Below are positions 30,794 to 53,943 of a DNA stretch of 64,000 nt, one piece after another; within the stretch, counting starts at the first letter, position 1, and every line of letters begins with the position of its first letter. The notes beneath the pieces were generated by a model, which ran no database searches, was not told the origin of the DNA, and worked only from the letters and a program-made list of their open reading frames with translations. This stretch comes from a phage, in sequence record OZ413487.1, one strand, 5' to 3'. The translations under genes were made by a program, and so were the position numbers.

Positions 30794-31318
30794 CTACAAA
30801 TGGTCGCTGAGGGTGTCAAGAAAATTATCCCGTTCTTTCTCAGAGTTTTCATGTGTGTAGCTGAAAAACATATCGAGAATAACCTTATTGATATATTCCA
30901 GCTCCTCTGTGTTCAGATGCTTAGCAGGATCTACAATGACATCCCAAATATCATACAGACCACACTCATGATACCCATAACGCCACTCAATTGTCAAGCT
31001 GAGCGGCAAATCTTTACCTTCACAAACAACCTTCCATCTACATATGTTGGTATCTGGTCGTACCTGTGCACGGTACACCTGCACAAAATCCAATTTGAAT
31101 TTGAGGTACTCGTCATACAATTTAAGCACAAAGCTCTCGATTTGTGGAGACACTTTTGCAGCAAACTGTGCGTATTTGTACTTGCACTGGATGATCTTTC
31201 TACGTTTTGCAGTTAAATTTTTTGCCGCCAGTTGTTCTTCAGTGTATCTCCACCTACGATCAACAAACGCAACAGGGTCTTTGTCCCCATAGAGGTCTTC
31301 CCAGTTAATCAGAAGCAT
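30794..31318 (-). CDS. hypothetical protein
   Basis: ATG 31318 after GGAGGAG SD (track 31327). Confidence 0.55.
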   Translation of the reverse strand: MLLINWEDLYGDKDPVAFVDRRWRYTEEQLAAKNLTAKRRKIIQCKYKYAQFAAKVSPQIESFVLKLYDEYLKFKLDFVQVYRAQVRPDTNICRWKVVCEGKDLPLSLTIEWRYGYHECGLYDIWDVIVDPAKHLNTEELEYINKVILDMFFSYTHENSEKERDNFLDTLSDHL

Positions 31319-32265: not shown

Positions 32266-32550
32266 CTACCAGGTTACTGTCAAGTAGGCAACCGTATTAT
32301 TTTTCTCTGGGGAGATGCCAACAACATCTACCTGCAGACCTCCTGCCCTTAAATCTCCAACAATGTGAGGGAAGTAATCTGAGAGATGCGAGGGTAGATT
32401 TATCGAAAATCCGCACCCCAGAAAGCCTGCTAACGCTTTATTTTGTATCTCCCCCACAATCGCATCATAAATGGAGTTAAGCTCGTCAGGGAGCGTTACA
32501 GGACGTTTTAGCGCTAACTGGTGTAATTTGTCCTTAGCACTCATTTTCAT
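32266..32550 (-). CDS. hypothetical protein
   Basis: ATG 32550 overlapping upstream TGA (track 32580). Confidence 0.5.
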   Translation of the reverse strand: MKMSAKDKLHQLALKRPVTLPDELNSIYDAIVGEIQNKALAGFLGCGFSINLPSHLSDYFPHIVGDLRAGGLQVDVVGISPEKNNTVAYLTVTW

Positions 32551-33080
32551 TTCAGGTCTACCTCTGGAGGTGCCAACCACATAAACGGCGGCAAGTCTAA
32601 ACGGTTTTTCTTATCCCACACAAAATATGCATATGCTTGCCCGTCAGTTCTGCCGTTTGATTGAAATGATGGACGCTTAGATATTGTGATCACAGTAGTA
32701 GGTGCATTATCAAGCCACCATTCAAATCTGGCTTTGCTTTCCAGAAAATTAAGACGCAAAAGCATAATAACTACGTCAGCATCTTTCAACGCCTTGTCTA
32801 CAAACTCACGAGCCAGGCTGTATGGTGGGTTGGTGATAATACAGTCAACATGGTTGTATTCTGTATTCAGATAGTCAACACCTTCTTGTATTTCTCCCCA
32901 TGCAGATCCTAACGGCATACGGGAGTAGAACACACCTGAGGCACTATTCCTGCAAGGCTCTAAGTAGGTCCAGTCTTCTGGGAACGGAATAAGGTCATAC
33001 AGCCCTTCTGCACACCACTCCGGTGTCACATACTCATCGTAGGCGTTACGTTGTTCATCAGGTTTTCGAGCACAAGTCAT
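32547..33080 (-). CDS. DNA methyltransferase (amino-methyltransferase, NPPY motif)
   Basis: 177 aa; DCIITNPPYS catalytic motif IV typical of N6-adenine/N4-cytosine MTases; no adjacent restriction gene. Confidence 0.6.
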   Translation of the reverse strand: MTCARKPDEQRNAYDEYVTPEWCAEGLYDLIPFPEDWTYLEPCRNSASGVFYSRMPLGSAWGEIQEGVDYLNTEYNHVDCIITNPPYSLAREFVDKALKDADVVIMLLRLNFLESKARFEWWLDNAPTTVITISKRPSFQSNGRTDGQAYAYFVWDKKNRLDLPPFMWLAPPEVDLK

Positions 33081-46290: not shown

Positions 46291-46749
46291 TTAGAAGTTT
46301 GTTTTTACACGTCCCTTCTCATCAACCTCGTTGTTAGCTAAAAGCGTTACAAAGTCTGTGAAACGAACATGAAGAACCCTTTTCTTATCAAGGTATCCTA
46401 AAGCCACCCCTGAGAAATTTAGCATCAAAGGGGCTAAAGAAGCTCTGGCACTGAAATGCTGTTGTTCTACCCTTCCAACACCCTTAGTGTAGGATGGGTT
46501 AAGATTGTAAGTTCTGAATCCCAGTTTTGTTGGAGCTTTAGAATTAAAAACGACTTTATAGCGTTTCTTACTCAACTTATGCTCCAGGATAAGCATTCCC
46601 TTATCACCTTTGATAAGTTGAAAATCTGTAAAGTGCTCTTTTAAGACGAAAGGTAGTGCCAGTCCCATCGCCTGTCCTCTTTGTACCGCTGTCTCACCAA
46701 AAGCTTTTGCATCAGTAAGTTCTTTGGTCAAGTCTATGCTTTTGATCAT
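46291..46749 (-). CDS. hypothetical protein
   Basis: 152 aa; GGAGACC SD. Confidence 0.5.
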   Translation of the reverse strand: MIKSIDLTKELTDAKAFGETAVQRGQAMGLALPFVLKEHFTDFQLIKGDKGMLILEHKLSKKRYKVVFNSKAPTKLGFRTYNLNPSYTKGVGRVEQQHFSARASLAPLMLNFSGVALGYLDKKRVLHVRFTDFVTLLANNEVDEKGRVKTNF

Positions 46750-47530
46750 ACCTGGTCTCCAAAATGTATTGTAGTTCTTTCTTACCTATACTCTTCATTC
46801 CAGCAGTCTTACCTGCTTCTTCTTGAAAAGAAGAATAGCATTCAGCAAACACTCTGTCAACACCGTTAACTAAAGATTTTATGAAATATGTTGATTCTTC
46901 AGATTTTGGGTCATCATCCCCCAATACTTTTCCAGCATTATACCCAACACGTCTTACACAGAAGTCGTAGTCATCTGGTGTGCTAAAAGAAAATAACTTA
47001 TTCTCTCCAATCTCTACAGGATCCCTATTGCACGCCTTTTTCTCCCAAATTTGGAAAACACATGGCACGTCATAAGGTTTGCCATTAAGTAAAAACGAAT
47101 TCTTAGGGCACCTTTCGCTGTAGACAAGGTGCATCGACATGTCCAGTTTGTTTGCAAAAAATATTTTTTCAAATGTCCGTGGCAAGATGAAGGCTATAGC
47201 CCCTCCAAGCTCTAGCAATGATGCACAATGGTTAAAGAATTTGCAAGCTAAGGATGAATTCTTGCCAAATGGTGGGTTACCTATGAAGACATCTGCCTTG
47301 GGATGCACCTCCAAGAAGTTTGCCTGAATGCACGGTGTTGGTCCTTCAAATTCAGGATCTGGTACTAAATCGTACGACAGTATCTCTGAAAATAGTTTTG
47401 AAAAAGAACCCCTTCCAGCAGAAGGCTCAACGTATGCACAATTCCCATACTTATCTTTTACTTTACCAACAAGATATTCTGCATACTCAGGGTTTGTGTA
47501 GTATTTGTCGTTGGACTCTTTCTTGCTCAA
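46712..47530 (-). CDS. DNA N6-adenine methyltransferase-like
   Basis: EPSAGRGSF (motif I-like) and IGNPPFG (motif IV); TTG start after a terminator hairpin at 47552-47569. Confidence 0.6.
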   Translation of the reverse strand: MSKKESNDKYYTNPEYAEYLVGKVKDKYGNCAYVEPSAGRGSFSKLFSEILSYDLVPDPEFEGPTPCIQANFLEVHPKADVFIGNPPFGKNSSLACKFFNHCASLLELGGAIAFILPRTFEKIFFANKLDMSMHLVYSERCPKNSFLLNGKPYDVPCVFQIWEKKACNRDPVEIGENKLFSFSTPDDYDFCVRRVGYNAGKVLGDDDPKSEESTYFIKSLVNGVDRVFAECYSSFQEEAGKTAGMKSIGKKELQYILETRYDQKHRLDQRTY

Positions 47531-47575
47531 AGTGCCTCCAAAAGGAAAAGGGAGGCGCAAGCCTCCCTATAATTG

Positions 47576-52778: not shown

Positions 52779-53462
52779 TTACAAGCTTTCAGTAAGAGCC
52801 TTTGCGTAACACGCTTCAGCAGACTCTTTGGTGTCAAACCTGCCTAACGTTTTTCCTCTGAAAGTTACTTTCCATTTGCCCCTGTCTGCTTCAAATCTGA
52901 CACCTCTAGATTTATCCCTCCCTAAAGGCTGTCCACGATATTCCCTGACAAACGTGCCACTTTCAAAAGACTTTTGAGCAGCAATGGCCTCTTCTAAGGT
53001 ATCGTATTCTCCTAAATCTTTCTTATAGTAATGACCTACCTTACCAAAAGCAGCATACCTTCCAGATCTAGCATGAAAATATACACCCAAATGTCCAGTA
53101 TTGGATTTAGGTATCTTGCGTGCCAGGCATCCGTCATCTGCCGCCTTTTTTGCATTTTCTTCTGGTGTTAACAGTTGTAGGTTTTCTACCCTATCATCCG
53201 CAACACCATCGGAATAGAAAAGTGGCTTTATGTGATCAACTTCGTACCCTTCTGGGATTGGTCCATAGTGCATCTCCCACACCAATCTATGCCTGTAGTA
53301 ATGCACGCCACAATAGACTATATCCCTGTACCCGTCCATGTTAGTACATCCAGCCTCCTTTCCCAGTAGTTGAGGTTTGTTTTTTGGCGGGGACTTCCAA
53401 AACAACCTTCCAGTTCCTGTATCGTATCTAAAGACACTCCACCAGTTAATCCCGTTACTCAT
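52779..53462 (-). CDS. HNH homing endonuclease with AP2-type DNA-binding domain
   Basis: EVDHIKP...NLQLLTPEEN HNH motif; C-terminal GVYFHARSGRYAAF AP2-like repeat; ATG 53462 after AGGTGGAG SD. Confidence 0.7.
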   Translation of the reverse strand: MSNGINWWSVFRYDTGTGRLFWKSPPKNKPQLLGKEAGCTNMDGYRDIVYCGVHYYRHRLVWEMHYGPIPEGYEVDHIKPLFYSDGVADDRVENLQLLTPEENAKKAADDGCLARKIPKSNTGHLGVYFHARSGRYAAFGKVGHYYKKDLGEYDTLEEAIAAQKSFESGTFVREYRGQPLGRDKSRGVRFEADRGKWKVTFRGKTLGRFDTKESAEACYAKALTESL

Positions 53463-53943
53463 CTGTAACAACTCCACCTGCCTTCTTAAAGATATCCAGC
53501 ATCTTGTCTATACTTTCTGCTCGCTGATTGTACAGCTTTCCAGCTCCTGGCGGTGGTGGGAAGCTTGCCCAGCGGCTGCGGCATTTATAAATGGCCTGAT
53601 GAATACGCCCTTCGTCAATGTCAGCGAGAGCCTTGCACTCACGGATCAGTTGCAACGCAATCTTGTCCTGACTGGCAGGGCCAAAATCTGGTAATCCTAA
53701 CTGTTTCATGTAGTGTTTAGCAAACTTCTCCAAAACCTGGTAACGACCAGCAGCGGAGGAGGTAAGTTTAGCATTTAGCTTAACGTAAACACCTGGATGC
53801 TTGCTGTAATCGCTGAACAGCTTGCCGCCGACTATGACATCGTACCCCCGATCCTTGGTAGGTTGTCTACCATTATCTGTTCCTTCCGAATATGCGATCA
53901 TATCCAAGAAAGCTTTTCGTTGAACATTTTTATCAAGTTTCAT
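53455..53943 (-). CDS. endolysin (lambda R-type lytic transglycosylase)
   Basis: 162 aa; QRKAFLDMIAYSEGTDNGRQPTKDRGYDVIVGG nearly identical in pattern to lambda R N-terminus. Confidence 0.85.
   Translation of the reverse strand: MKLDKNVQRKAFLDMIAYSEGTDNGRQPTKDRGYDVIVGGKLFSDYSKHPGVYVKLNAKLTSSAAGRYQVLEKFAKHYMKQLGLPDFGPASQDKIALQLIRECKALADIDEGRIHQAIYKCRSRWASFPPPPGAGKLYNQRAESIDKMLDIFKKAGGVVTDE

What the first reader, a model, noticed from the sequence alone, without database searches (positions are those of the whole stretch)
32547..33080. Two orphan DNA methyltransferases without cognate restriction enzymes
A 177-aa NPPY-motif amino-MTase (32547-33080) and a 272-aa N6-adenine MTase-like gene (46712-47530; EPSAGRGSF, IGNPPFG) lack any adjacent endonuclease. 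Self-methylation is a classic phage strategy to evade host restriction, and two distinct enzymes imply protection at two site specificities.
Basis: partly seen in the sequence, partly recalled or inferred. Interest (0 to 1): 0.4.

Follow-up and report, generated by a model that had tools for sequence, protein, structure and literature searches.

The report
Two phage DNA adenine methyltransferase genes
Both genes are real DNA adenine methyltransferases of an ordinary rV5-like E. coli phage: the first is already published as the phage's own GATC methylase, and the second is probably the unassigned GTAC methylase.

Summary
The window is about 64 kb of an rV5-like Vequintavirus, 98-99% identical to more than 100 public genomes in which both genes are already annotated as putative N6-adenine methyltransferases.

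Gene 1 (32547-33080, minus strand, 177 aa) differs at one residue from bas51_0176 of phage Bas51. A 2025 PLoS Biology paper showed that this protein methylates GATC on phage DNA and triggers retrons Asa1 and Squ1.

That paper's source data also show complete GTAC adenine methylation (509-511 adenines; I count 516 in the genome). It is independent of gene 1 and is not assigned to any enzyme.

Gene 2 (46712-47530, minus strand, TTG start, 272 aa) is the best candidate for it, at about 0.6-0.7. It shares gene 1's catalytic domain and matches a Type II methyltransferase model over its full length. A quarter of the 80 best bacterial loci with a relative of it carry a Type II restriction-enzyme-like partner, which the phage lacks.

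The rival candidate is a 441-aa Type III Mod-like methyltransferase just outside the window. The lineage has four methyltransferase-like genes, not two.

An anti-restriction role remains untested. Published data rate this phage group as exceptionally restriction-sensitive, although no tested system targets GATC or GTAC. Ordinary and largely known.

The parts
32547..33080 (-). Gene 1: a 177-aa minimal N6-adenine DNA methyltransferase, the phage Dam, specific for GATC. Motif order is X (DxYxTP, residues 15-20), I (EPCRNSASG, 41-49), IV (TNPPY, 83-87). It has no separate target-recognition domain.
   Evidence: ORF; motifs. It matches PHROG 799 'DNA methyltransferase' at E 8e-67. It is 176/177 identical to bas51_0176, and the published escape residues D69, D79 and T83 are present only in this protein. 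The GATC specificity comes from PMC12548924. The model has pLDDT 89.6.
46712..47530 (-). Gene 2: a 272-aa N6-adenine methyltransferase with a TTG start. Motifs are X (DKYYTNP), I (EPSAGRGSF) and IV (IGNPPFG), followed by a conserved C-terminal extension of about 100 aa. It is probably the GTAC-specific DNA methyltransferase.
   Evidence: ORF, alignment. PADLOC MTase_II model PDLC03255 matches at E 3e-34 over residues 8-253 of 272. hhalign to the gene 1 family gives 97.6% probability. It is 270/272 identical to bas51_0200. The model has pLDDT 91.4. Bacterial relatives pair with a REase_II-like protein.
47549..47568 (-). Intrinsic-terminator-like hairpin (AGGGAGGC-TTGC-GCCTCCCT followed by TTTTCCTTTT) between the DnaQ-like exonuclease gene and gene 2. 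It fixes gene 2's start at TTG 47530; a GGAGG lies a few bases upstream of that codon.
   Evidence: for the hairpin; for the sequence upstream of the start.
46291..46749 (-). A 152-aa ORF that overlaps gene 2's 3' end by 38 nt in another frame. It is a conserved companion of gene 2 with unknown function. It is not a methyltransferase, although some GenBank records label it as one.
   Evidence: It has no Pfam, NCBIfam, PADLOC or PDB hit and matches PHROG 9938, of unknown function. In Phapecoctavirus ESCO5 a 30%-identical homolog lies 9 nt upstream of the gene 2 homolog, in a different neighbourhood.

Best explanation
The window is part of a lytic rV5-like Vequintavirus genome. Gene 1 encodes a minimal, single-domain N6-adenine DNA methyltransferase that methylates the adenine of GATC on replicating phage DNA, so packaged DNA is methylated at essentially every GATC site. 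This was shown for a protein differing at 1 of 177 residues. In that experiment host methylation was nearly absent from the packaged DNA. Gene 2 encodes a homologous catalytic domain plus a C-terminal extension of about 100 aa. It belongs to a Type II DNA methyltransferase family and is most likely the enzyme behind the complete GTm6AC methylation seen on the same phage DNA (inferred by elimination). Neither gene has a restriction partner in the phage. The inferred benefit is protection of phage DNA from nucleases that cut unmethylated GATC- or GTAC-containing sites. This includes six-base sites that embed GTAC, such as KpnI GGTACC (from my own knowledge). The benefit is not demonstrated. The demonstrated cost is that GATC methylation by gene 1 triggers retrons Asa1 and Squ1.
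For: Identity of the phage: the two regions are 99.0% and 99.8% identical at best to Vequintavirus genomes, where both genes are already annotated as putative N6-adenine methyltransferases.

Gene 1. It is 176/177 identical to bas51_0176. D69, D79 and T83, the published escape positions, occur together only in this protein among the four Bas51 methyltransferases. In PMC12548924, wild-type Bas51 DNA has 1405 methylated adenines at GATC and the T83P mutant has 35. I count 703 GATC sites in the Bas51 genome, i.e. 1406 adenines. The phage was grown on MG1655 derivatives, which are dam+ (my own knowledge).

GTAC. There are 509 methylated adenines in wild type and 511 in T83P, against 258 sites, i.e. 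516 adenines. The methylation is therefore complete and independent of gene 1. E. coli K-12 has no GTAC methylase (my own knowledge).

Gene 2. It has NPPF and EPSAGxGxF motifs and 34 invariant columns across 40 homologs. It matches the full length of PADLOC Type II methyltransferase model PDLC03255 at E 3e-34. It is homologous to the gene 1 family (hhalign 97.6%, E 4e-12). In 20 of the 80 best bacterial loci, a conserved protein of about 215 aa lies immediately downstream on the same strand, and 17 of 18 of these match PADLOC REase_II at E down to 5e-15. One such pair sits beside Type I HsdM and HsdS genes. Fold matches include M.BseCI, CamA, HsdM and M.TaqI.

The rival adenine methyltransferase, bas51_0070, matches the Type III Mod model at E 1.5e-205. 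Characterised Type III enzymes recognise asymmetric sites (established knowledge).
Against: No methylome exists for this exact phage, so everything rests on a relative that is about 92-98% identical at the DNA level.

Gene 2's link to GTAC is by elimination only. bas51_0070 also has intact catalytic motifs (DPPF, FGGSGTT) and could be the GTAC enzyme. The T83P mutant still has 349 'other' methylated sites whose motif is unreported.

Neither protein reaches any curated Pfam or NCBIfam cut-off: Dam PF05869 scores 19.2 against 28.1, TIGR01712 16.1 against 97, and Eco57I PF07669 15.5 against 25.3.

By sequence, gene 2's best solved relatives are the uncharacterised Ta1320 and the rRNA methyltransferase METTL5 (E 2.5e-4 and 0.02). 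Its top fold hit is the tRNA enzyme TrmN.

Gene 1's SAM-binding loop is atypical, with a 2-aa insertion.

The anti-restriction role is untested, and Vequintavirinae are exceptionally restriction-sensitive in the BASEL panel.

Palindrome-avoidance statistics in the bacterial loci with a restriction partner did not single out GTAC: GTAC is 0.66 against 0.83, but GCATGC is 0.43 against 0.84.
Confidence: 0.62

Rival explanations
1. Gene 2 is a DNA adenine methyltransferase but not the GTAC enzyme. The 441-aa beta-class methyltransferase just outside the window (bas51_0070, APECc02 gp006) makes GTm6AC. Gene 2 then has another, rarer or partially methylated motif hidden among the 'other' sites, or is poorly active in E. 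coli K-12.
For: bas51_0070 is a bona fide PF01555 N6/N4 methyltransferase (E 4e-42) with intact DPPF and FGGSGTT motifs, and it is conserved in the closest relative of the window. There are 349-576 unassigned methylated adenines. Known GTAC adenine methylases are mutually dissimilar, at 15-18% identity (PMC2588503), so enzyme class predicts specificity poorly. The bacterial loci with a restriction partner showed stronger avoidance of GCATGC than of GTAC.
Against: bas51_0070 matches the Type III Mod model almost end to end (E 1.5e-205), and characterised Type III Mods recognise asymmetric sites. The 349 residual sites are close to the roughly 275 expected for one asymmetric 5-mer in 140 kb (my arithmetic). 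Gene 2 is a full-length Type II-family enzyme whose relatives pair with small Type II-like endonucleases, which is typical of short palindromic sites.
Confidence: 0.25
2. Gene 2 does not act on DNA. It is an RNA (rRNA or tRNA) m6A methyltransferase, or methylates another substrate, and was recruited by the phage.
For: Its best sequence matches among solved structures are Ta1320 and the rRNA methyltransferase METTL5. Its top fold hit is the tRNA m6A enzyme TrmN. JGI names several homologs 'predicted RNA methylase', and one homolog passes the rRNA adenine dimethylase model PF00398. The NPPF motif is shared by RNA and protein amino-methyltransferases.
Against: It matches a Type II DNA methyltransferase model over its full length. 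A restriction-enzyme-like partner recurs in 20 of 80 bacterial loci, one of them beside a Type I RM system. It is homologous to gene 1, a proven DNA enzyme. It sits in the phage's DNA replication and recombination module. There is an unassigned DNA motif that needs an enzyme.
Confidence: 0.06
3. The methylation is real, but its main purpose is not anti-restriction. It might keep unmethylated phage GATC sites from MutH cleavage, regulate phage replication, packaging or transcription, or mark phage DNA as self. This rival concerns the role only, not the enzymes' identity, so its confidence overlaps with the other entries.
For: The phage group shows no general restriction resistance. Host methylation is nearly absent on the packaged DNA of the T83P mutant (35 of 1406 adenines), so the phage invests in complete GATC methylation although K-12 has no GATC-cutting restriction enzyme (my own knowledge). 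The enzyme is toxic when expressed alone. Gene 2 keeps a linked small partner ORF in two phage genera.
Against: The methyltransferase mutants (D69G, D79G, T83P) plate like wild type without a retron, so GATC methylation is dispensable in the laboratory, as expected for a host-range or defence function. GTAC is the most under-represented four-base palindrome in the window (O/E 0.63), which is compatible with past restriction pressure on that site.
Confidence: 0.2

Closest known systems
Bas51 (Escherichia phage WalterGehring, MZ501111) N6-adenine methyltransferase bas51_0176, characterised in PMC12548924
   Same: It is essentially the same protein as gene 1: 176/177 identical, with the same neighbours (ClpP-like protease upstream). 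It methylates GATC and triggers retrons Asa1 and Squ1. D69G, D79G and T83P abolish triggering, and T83P abolishes GATC methylation.
   Different: One substitution (V174A). The window's phage itself has not been tested.
Small phage Dam family (Pfam PF05869 'Dam', NCBIfam TIGR01712 'phage N-6-adenine-methyltransferase')
   Same: Single-domain enzymes of about 165-170 aa (profile lengths 169 and 165) from phages. The weak local match covers the motif IV region.
   Different: Scores are far below the curated cut-offs (19.2 against 28.1, and 16.1 against 97.05). Gene 1 therefore belongs to a separate, uncurated family: PHROG 799, with 312 homologs.
E. coli Dam and T4 Dam (alpha-class GATC adenine methyltransferases)
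   Same: The same product, Gm6ATC, and orphan status.
   Different: The architecture differs. Alpha-class enzymes place a recognition domain between motif I and DPPY (established knowledge), whereas gene 1 has the gamma-type order X-I-IV and no separate recognition domain. No alpha-class Dam family (e.g. Pfam MethyltransfD12) was reported in the Pfam scan.
M.TaqI and other gamma-class N6-adenine DNA methyltransferases (M.BseCI, CamA, Type I HsdM)
   Same: Motif order, NPPY/F catalytic loop and Rossmann fold. M.TaqI is the best solved sequence match for the gene 1 family (E 3.5e-5), and these enzymes are among the top fold matches for both models.
   Different: Those enzymes are 390-590 aa with large recognition domains or separate specificity subunits. 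TM-scores are only 0.4-0.6 and cover the catalytic domain alone.
GTAC-specific adenine methyltransferases M.HpyAXII (H. pylori), M.PabI (P. abyssi) and M.CviQI (chlorovirus)
   Same: The same product, GTm6AC, if gene 2 is the GTAC enzyme. M.HpyAXII is also gamma-class, with its catalytic Asn at residue 87 (PMC2588503), against Asn 85 in gene 2.
   Different: Those enzymes are partners of restriction enzymes. They share only 15-18% identity with one another.
PADLOC Type II RM models PDLC03255 (methyltransferase) and PDLC03460 (restriction enzyme)
   Same: Gene 2 matches the methyltransferase model end to end (E 3e-34). The downstream partner of its bacterial relatives matches the restriction-enzyme model.
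   Different: The phage carries only the methyltransferase half. The specificity of this RM family is unknown to me.

Membership tests
N6-adenine (amino) methyltransferases, gamma-type motif order | Catalytic motif IV (D/N/S)PP(Y/F) | tested here: met
   Gene 1 has TNPPY at residues 83-87, and T83, N84, P85 and P86 are invariant in 44 sequences. Gene 2 has GNPPFG, invariant in 40 sequences.
N6-adenine (amino) methyltransferases, gamma-type motif order | SAM-binding motif I (ExxxGxG-like loop) lying N-terminal to motif IV, preceded by motif X (xYxTP) | tested here: met
   Gene 2 has DKYYTNP, then EPSAGRGSF, then NPPF. Gene 1 has DEYVTP, then EPCRNSASG, then NPPY. Gene 1's loop is atypical, with a 2-aa insertion and one glycine, but the near-identical Bas51 enzyme is active.
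N6-adenine (amino) methyltransferases, gamma-type motif order | Class I Rossmann-like methyltransferase fold | tested here: met
   The AlphaFold2 models have pLDDT 89.6 and 91.4. Their Foldseek hits are exclusively class I amino-methyltransferases.
Phage Dam (GATC-specific DNA adenine methylation), for gene 1 | Methylates the adenine of GATC in DNA | not testable with these tools
   Published for the 176/177-identical Bas51 protein (PMC12548924). I checked only the identity and that the reported 1405 methylated adenines equal the genome's 1406 GATC adenines.
Pfam PF05869 Dam / NCBIfam TIGR01712 phage_N6A_met, for gene 1 | Score at or above the curated cut-off | tested here: not met
   19.2 bits against a cut-off of 28.1, and 16.1 bits against 97.05.
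Type II DNA methyltransferase, for gene 2 | Full-length match to a Type II methyltransferase profile | tested here: met
   PADLOC PDLC03255 at E 3.3e-34, residues 8-253 of 272 against profile positions 2-249 of 269. The Pfam models N6_Mtase and Eco57I are not reached.
Type II DNA methyltransferase, for gene 2 | Family members occur next to a cognate restriction endonuclease | tested here: met
   20 of the 80 best bacterial loci have a conserved ORF of about 215 aa directly downstream. 17 of 18 of these match PADLOC REase_II.
Orphan (solitary) methyltransferase, for both genes in the phage | No cognate restriction endonuclease in the same genome | tested here: met
   No restriction enzyme is annotated among the neighbours. 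The family's restriction-enzyme profile finds nothing in the six-frame translation of the window or of Bas51 (best E 2.6). Caveat: gene 2 keeps a linked 152-aa ORF of unknown function.
GTAC-specific m6A methyltransferases (M.HpyAXII, M.PabI, M.CviQI), for gene 2 | Methylates the adenine of GTAC | not testable with these tools
   Indirect only. GTAC is fully methylated in Bas51 independently of gene 1. The other adenine-methyltransferase candidate is Type III-like. Palindrome avoidance in the bacterial loci was inconclusive.
RNA m6A methyltransferases (METTL5/Ta1320, TrmN, KsgA/Dim1, Erm) | Closer to RNA enzymes than to DNA enzymes in sequence or fold | tested here: inconclusive
   Weak hits go to both kinds. 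For gene 2: Ta1320 at E 2.5e-4 against M.TaqI at 0.22; the fold hits are led by TrmN, then M.BseCI, CamA and HsdM. For gene 1: M.TaqI at 3.5e-5 against Erm at 1.3e-4; the fold hits are Dim1, then HsdM. Only the catalytic domain aligns, so this cannot decide the substrate.

The most novel reading that the evidence does not exclude
Gene 2 is not truly solitary. Together with the small ORF that stays linked to it in two phage genera (46291-46749 here; 9 nt upstream of the methyltransferase in Phapecoctavirus), it forms a phage-borne two-gene module. In this reading, GTAC methylation marks phage DNA as self while the partner acts on unmethylated host DNA or modulates the methyltransferase. This would be analogous to the virus-encoded CviQI restriction-modification pair of chloroviruses (my own knowledge). 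E. coli DNA is unmethylated at GTAC (my own knowledge), so GTAC, unlike GATC, could distinguish phage DNA from host DNA.
Probability: 0.07. Interest if true: 0.6.

Novelty: already known. Interest (0 to 1): 0.2.

Why it matters
As submitted, it matters little. Both genes are annotated in more than 100 public Vequintavirus genomes, and the first has a published specificity and phenotype.

The useful residue is a concrete, cheap hypothesis. Fully penetrant GTm6AC methylation sits unassigned in a published data table. It most likely belongs to the 272-aa gene, whose family has no Pfam or NCBIfam model and is 'unknown function' in PHROGs.

Confirming this would give a specificity to a family with hundreds of members. 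It would also flag its bacterial ~215-aa partner as a candidate restriction enzyme family whose specificity could then be tested.

It would also tell users of rV5-like therapeutic or typing phages which restriction barriers these phages can and cannot cross, and which methylation-sensing defences (retrons, methyl-dependent nucleases) they provoke.

Tried and rejected
1. Curated families. Pfam and NCBIfam give no hit above cut-off for either protein. PF26055, precomputed for some gene 2 homologs, was not recovered in my scan.

2. Substrate from structure. Foldseek against the PDB and the viral library aligns only the catalytic domain and mixes DNA and RNA enzymes.

3. Identity of the bacterial partner protein. 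Pfam, NCBIfam, PDB and the plasmid collection gave nothing. Only PADLOC identified it, as a Type II restriction enzyme.

4. Specificity from palindrome avoidance in 132 kb of bacterial loci with a restriction partner against 388 kb without. GTAC was 0.66 against 0.83 (Poisson p 0.006, uncorrected), but GCATGC was 0.43 against 0.84 and other sites were also low. This is inconclusive.

5. The 152-aa ORF as a frameshifted part of the methyltransferase or as a nuclease. It has no methyltransferase motifs and is not related to the bacterial restriction-enzyme partner. A D..ExK-like string is not conserved in the Phapecoctavirus homolog. Only close homologs exist in the protein database.

6. Literature on restriction digests or methylomes of rV5-like or Phapecoctavirus phages. 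The rV5 genome paper has nothing on methylation, and other searches returned nothing relevant.

Full report
WHAT THE WINDOW IS

Megablast of both regions finds more than 120 phage records. At least 115 of them cover 80% or more of each query, at 90-99.8% identity. All are rV5-like myoviruses (Vequintavirus; best matches APECc02 and phiWec189). In those records the two genes are already labelled 'DNA methyltransferase' or 'putative N6 adenine methyltransferase'. Aligning the window to Escherichia phage WalterGehring (BASEL number Bas51, MZ501111) shows that it corresponds to Bas51 coordinates 72.9-140.7 kb at 92-98% identity.

THE OBSERVATION

- Gene 1 runs 33080->32547 on the minus strand, starts with ATG and encodes 177 aa.
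- Gene 2 runs 47530->46712 on the minus strand and encodes 272 aa, with a TTG start.

A terminator hairpin at 47568-47549 lies just upstream of gene 2's start and excludes the longer mechanical ORF. Homologs begin at the same MSKK.

Both proteins have deep, well-conserved families: 312 and 806 database clusters, with 11 and 34 invariant columns that include TNPP and GNPPFG. Both give confident Rossmann-fold models. The two families are homologous over the catalytic domain (hhalign 97.6%, E 4e-12, 145 columns). Gene 1 is in effect the bare catalytic domain. Gene 2 adds a conserved C-terminal region of about 100 aa.

GENE 1 IS A PUBLISHED PHAGE DAM

A 2025 PLoS Biology paper (PMC12548924) selected Bas51 escapers of retrons Asa1 and Squ1. 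[quoted passage not shown]

Among the four methyltransferase-like proteins of Bas51, only bas51_0176 has D69, D79 and T83. It is 176/177 identical to the window's gene 1.

Native nanopore sequencing gave 1405 methylated adenines at GATC in wild type and 35 in T83P (supplementary source data). I counted 703 GATC sites in the Bas51 genome, i.e. 1406 adenines. Methylation is therefore complete and depends on this gene, even though the phage was grown on MG1655 derivatives, which are dam+ (my own knowledge).

Sequence and fold alone would not have settled the substrate. The best solved relatives mix M.TaqI, Erm, Dim1/KsgA and Type I HsdM. The protein also fails the curated cut-offs of the small phage Dam families PF05869 and TIGR01712.

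A SECOND, UNASSIGNED MOTIF

The same source-data table lists 509 (wild type) and 511 (T83P) methylated adenines at GTAC. The main text mentions GTAC only once, in the methods, and does not attribute it to an enzyme. The genome has 258 GTAC sites, i.e. 516 adenines. GTAC is therefore also about 99% methylated, independently of gene 1. E. coli K-12 has no GTAC methylase (my own knowledge), so the enzyme must be phage-encoded.

WHICH ENZYME MAKES GTm6AC?

The Bas51 annotation shows two further methyltransferase-like genes, which lie about 5-9 kb before the start of the window:

- bas51_0070, 441 aa, Pfam PF01555 at E 4e-42;
- bas51_0074, 254 aa, with C5-cytosine-type motifs.

Both are also present in APECc02, the window's close relative. 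The adenine candidates for GTAC are therefore gene 2 and bas51_0070.

Evidence favouring gene 2:

- It matches a PADLOC Type II methyltransferase model end to end (E 3e-34). bas51_0070 instead matches a Type III Mod model at E 1.5e-205. Characterised Type III enzymes use asymmetric sites (established knowledge).
- In GTDB genomes the gene 2 family occurs at 281 loci. In 20 of the best 80, from Campylobacterota, Alpha- and Gammaproteobacteria and Verrucomicrobia, a conserved protein of about 215 aa follows directly on the same strand. 17 of 18 of these match a PADLOC Type II restriction-enzyme model. One such pair lies beside Type I HsdM and HsdS genes.
- Gene 2 is homologous to the GATC enzyme, whose site differs from GTAC only in the order of the two central bases. 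This point is suggestive only.
- The 349 residual 'other' sites in T83P are close to what one asymmetric 5-mer would give in 140 kb (my arithmetic). That would leave a motif for bas51_0070.

Evidence against gene 2:

- The argument is by elimination only.
- Known GTAC adenine methylases are mutually dissimilar, so class predicts specificity poorly.
- My palindrome-avoidance test on the bacterial loci did not single out GTAC.

I put gene 2 = GTAC at about 0.6-0.7.

ORPHAN STATUS

No restriction enzyme is annotated near either gene. The family's restriction-enzyme profile finds nothing in the window or in the whole Bas51 genome. The nucleases in the neighbourhood are an EndoVII-type recombination endonuclease, a DnaQ-like exonuclease and homing endonucleases.

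There is one caveat. The 152-aa ORF that overlaps gene 2's end by 38 nt has a 30%-identical homolog placed 9 nt upstream of the gene 2 homolog in Phapecoctavirus ESCO5. The neighbourhood there is different: primase/helicase, small ORF, methyltransferase, DNA polymerase I. Linkage is therefore conserved while gene order is not. The ORF has no recognisable domain and only close relatives in the protein database.

FUNCTION

Methylation of the phage's own DNA is shown for a near-identical phage. Protection from restriction is inferred.

The BASEL study found Vequintavirinae exceptionally susceptible to its RM panel and concluded they seem to lack effective protection. [quoted passage not shown] None of these targets GATC or GTAC (sites from my own knowledge), so this neither supports nor refutes a site-specific benefit.

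GATC is at expectation in the phage (O/E 0.98-1.03). GTAC is the most, or second most, depleted four-base palindrome (O/E 0.59-0.63).

The methyltransferase mutants plate normally on hosts without a retron, and the enzyme is toxic when expressed alone. The demonstrated effect of gene 1 is a liability: it activates retron abortive infection.

VERDICT

The finding is ordinary and largely already known. The only new element is a testable assignment of the unexplained GTAC methylation to gene 2.

Noticed in passing
window 46291-46749 (-); L090 2560-2991: A 152-aa ORF overlaps gene 2's stop by 38 nt. Some GenBank records mislabel it as a methyltransferase, but it has no recognisable domain. A 30%-identical homolog sits 9 nt upstream of the gene 2 homolog in Phapecoctavirus ESCO5, in a different neighbourhood. 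Linkage to the methyltransferase is thus conserved while gene order is swapped.
   Followed up: partly
L006 4805-5404; L047 3779-4432 and 18 other bacterial loci (alignment A3): A conserved protein of about 215 aa lies directly downstream of gene 2's bacterial relatives. It has no Pfam, NCBIfam or PDB match but matches the PADLOC Type II restriction-enzyme model PDLC03460. It is a candidate restriction enzyme family of unknown specificity.
   Followed up: partly
outside the window: L004 14456-15781 and 17042-17806 (Bas51); L089 5469-6794 and 8055-8819 (APECc02): The phage lineage carries two more methyltransferase-like genes, about 5-9 kb before the window start. One is a 441-aa Type III Mod-like adenine methyltransferase with no Res partner. 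The other is a 254-aa protein with C5-cytosine-type motifs (LFDGSGG, FPPC) and no Pfam or PADLOC hit.
   Followed up: partly
window 30794-31318 (-): This ORF is 175/175 identical to the Bas51 'putative glycosidase' bas51_0171. A premature stop in that gene (R87*) lets the phage escape retron Asa1 but not Squ1 (PMC12548924). It lies 1.2 kb downstream of gene 1.
   Followed up: partly
window 32547-33080 (-), residues 41-49: Gene 1's SAM-binding loop reads EPCRNSASG. It has a 2-aa 'NS' insertion relative to close homologs (EPCR-ASG) and differs from the EPCxGxG of distant ones. The near-identical Bas51 enzyme is nevertheless fully active.
   Followed up: no
whole window; Bas51 genome (L003-L005): GTAC is the most under-represented four-base palindrome in the window (Markov O/E 0.63) and the second most in Bas51 (0.59), although it is fully methylated in Bas51. 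GATC is at expectation. CGATCG occurs only once in 140 kb.
   Followed up: partly
window 52779-53477 (-): A 232-aa ORF that looks like an HNH-type homing endonuclease, judged by eye from its sequence. It lies in a segment of about 800 bp that is absent from Bas51. Conversely, the two Bas51 stretches that hold annotated homing endonucleases (about 112.5-113.6 kb and 114.9-115.7 kb) do not align to the window.
   Followed up: no
phage database hits: About 20 GenBank records named 'Campylobacter phage' (MG0656xx series, unannotated) are 98-99% identical to E. coli Vequintavirus genomes. They are probably mislabelled or contaminant assemblies.
   Followed up: no
PMC12548924 source data (Fig 4f): 349 (T83P) to 576 (wild type) methylated adenines lie outside GATC and GTAC and are not discussed in the paper. 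They could hide a third motif. The drop of 227 in the mutant suggests some are off-target sites of the GATC enzyme.
   Followed up: no
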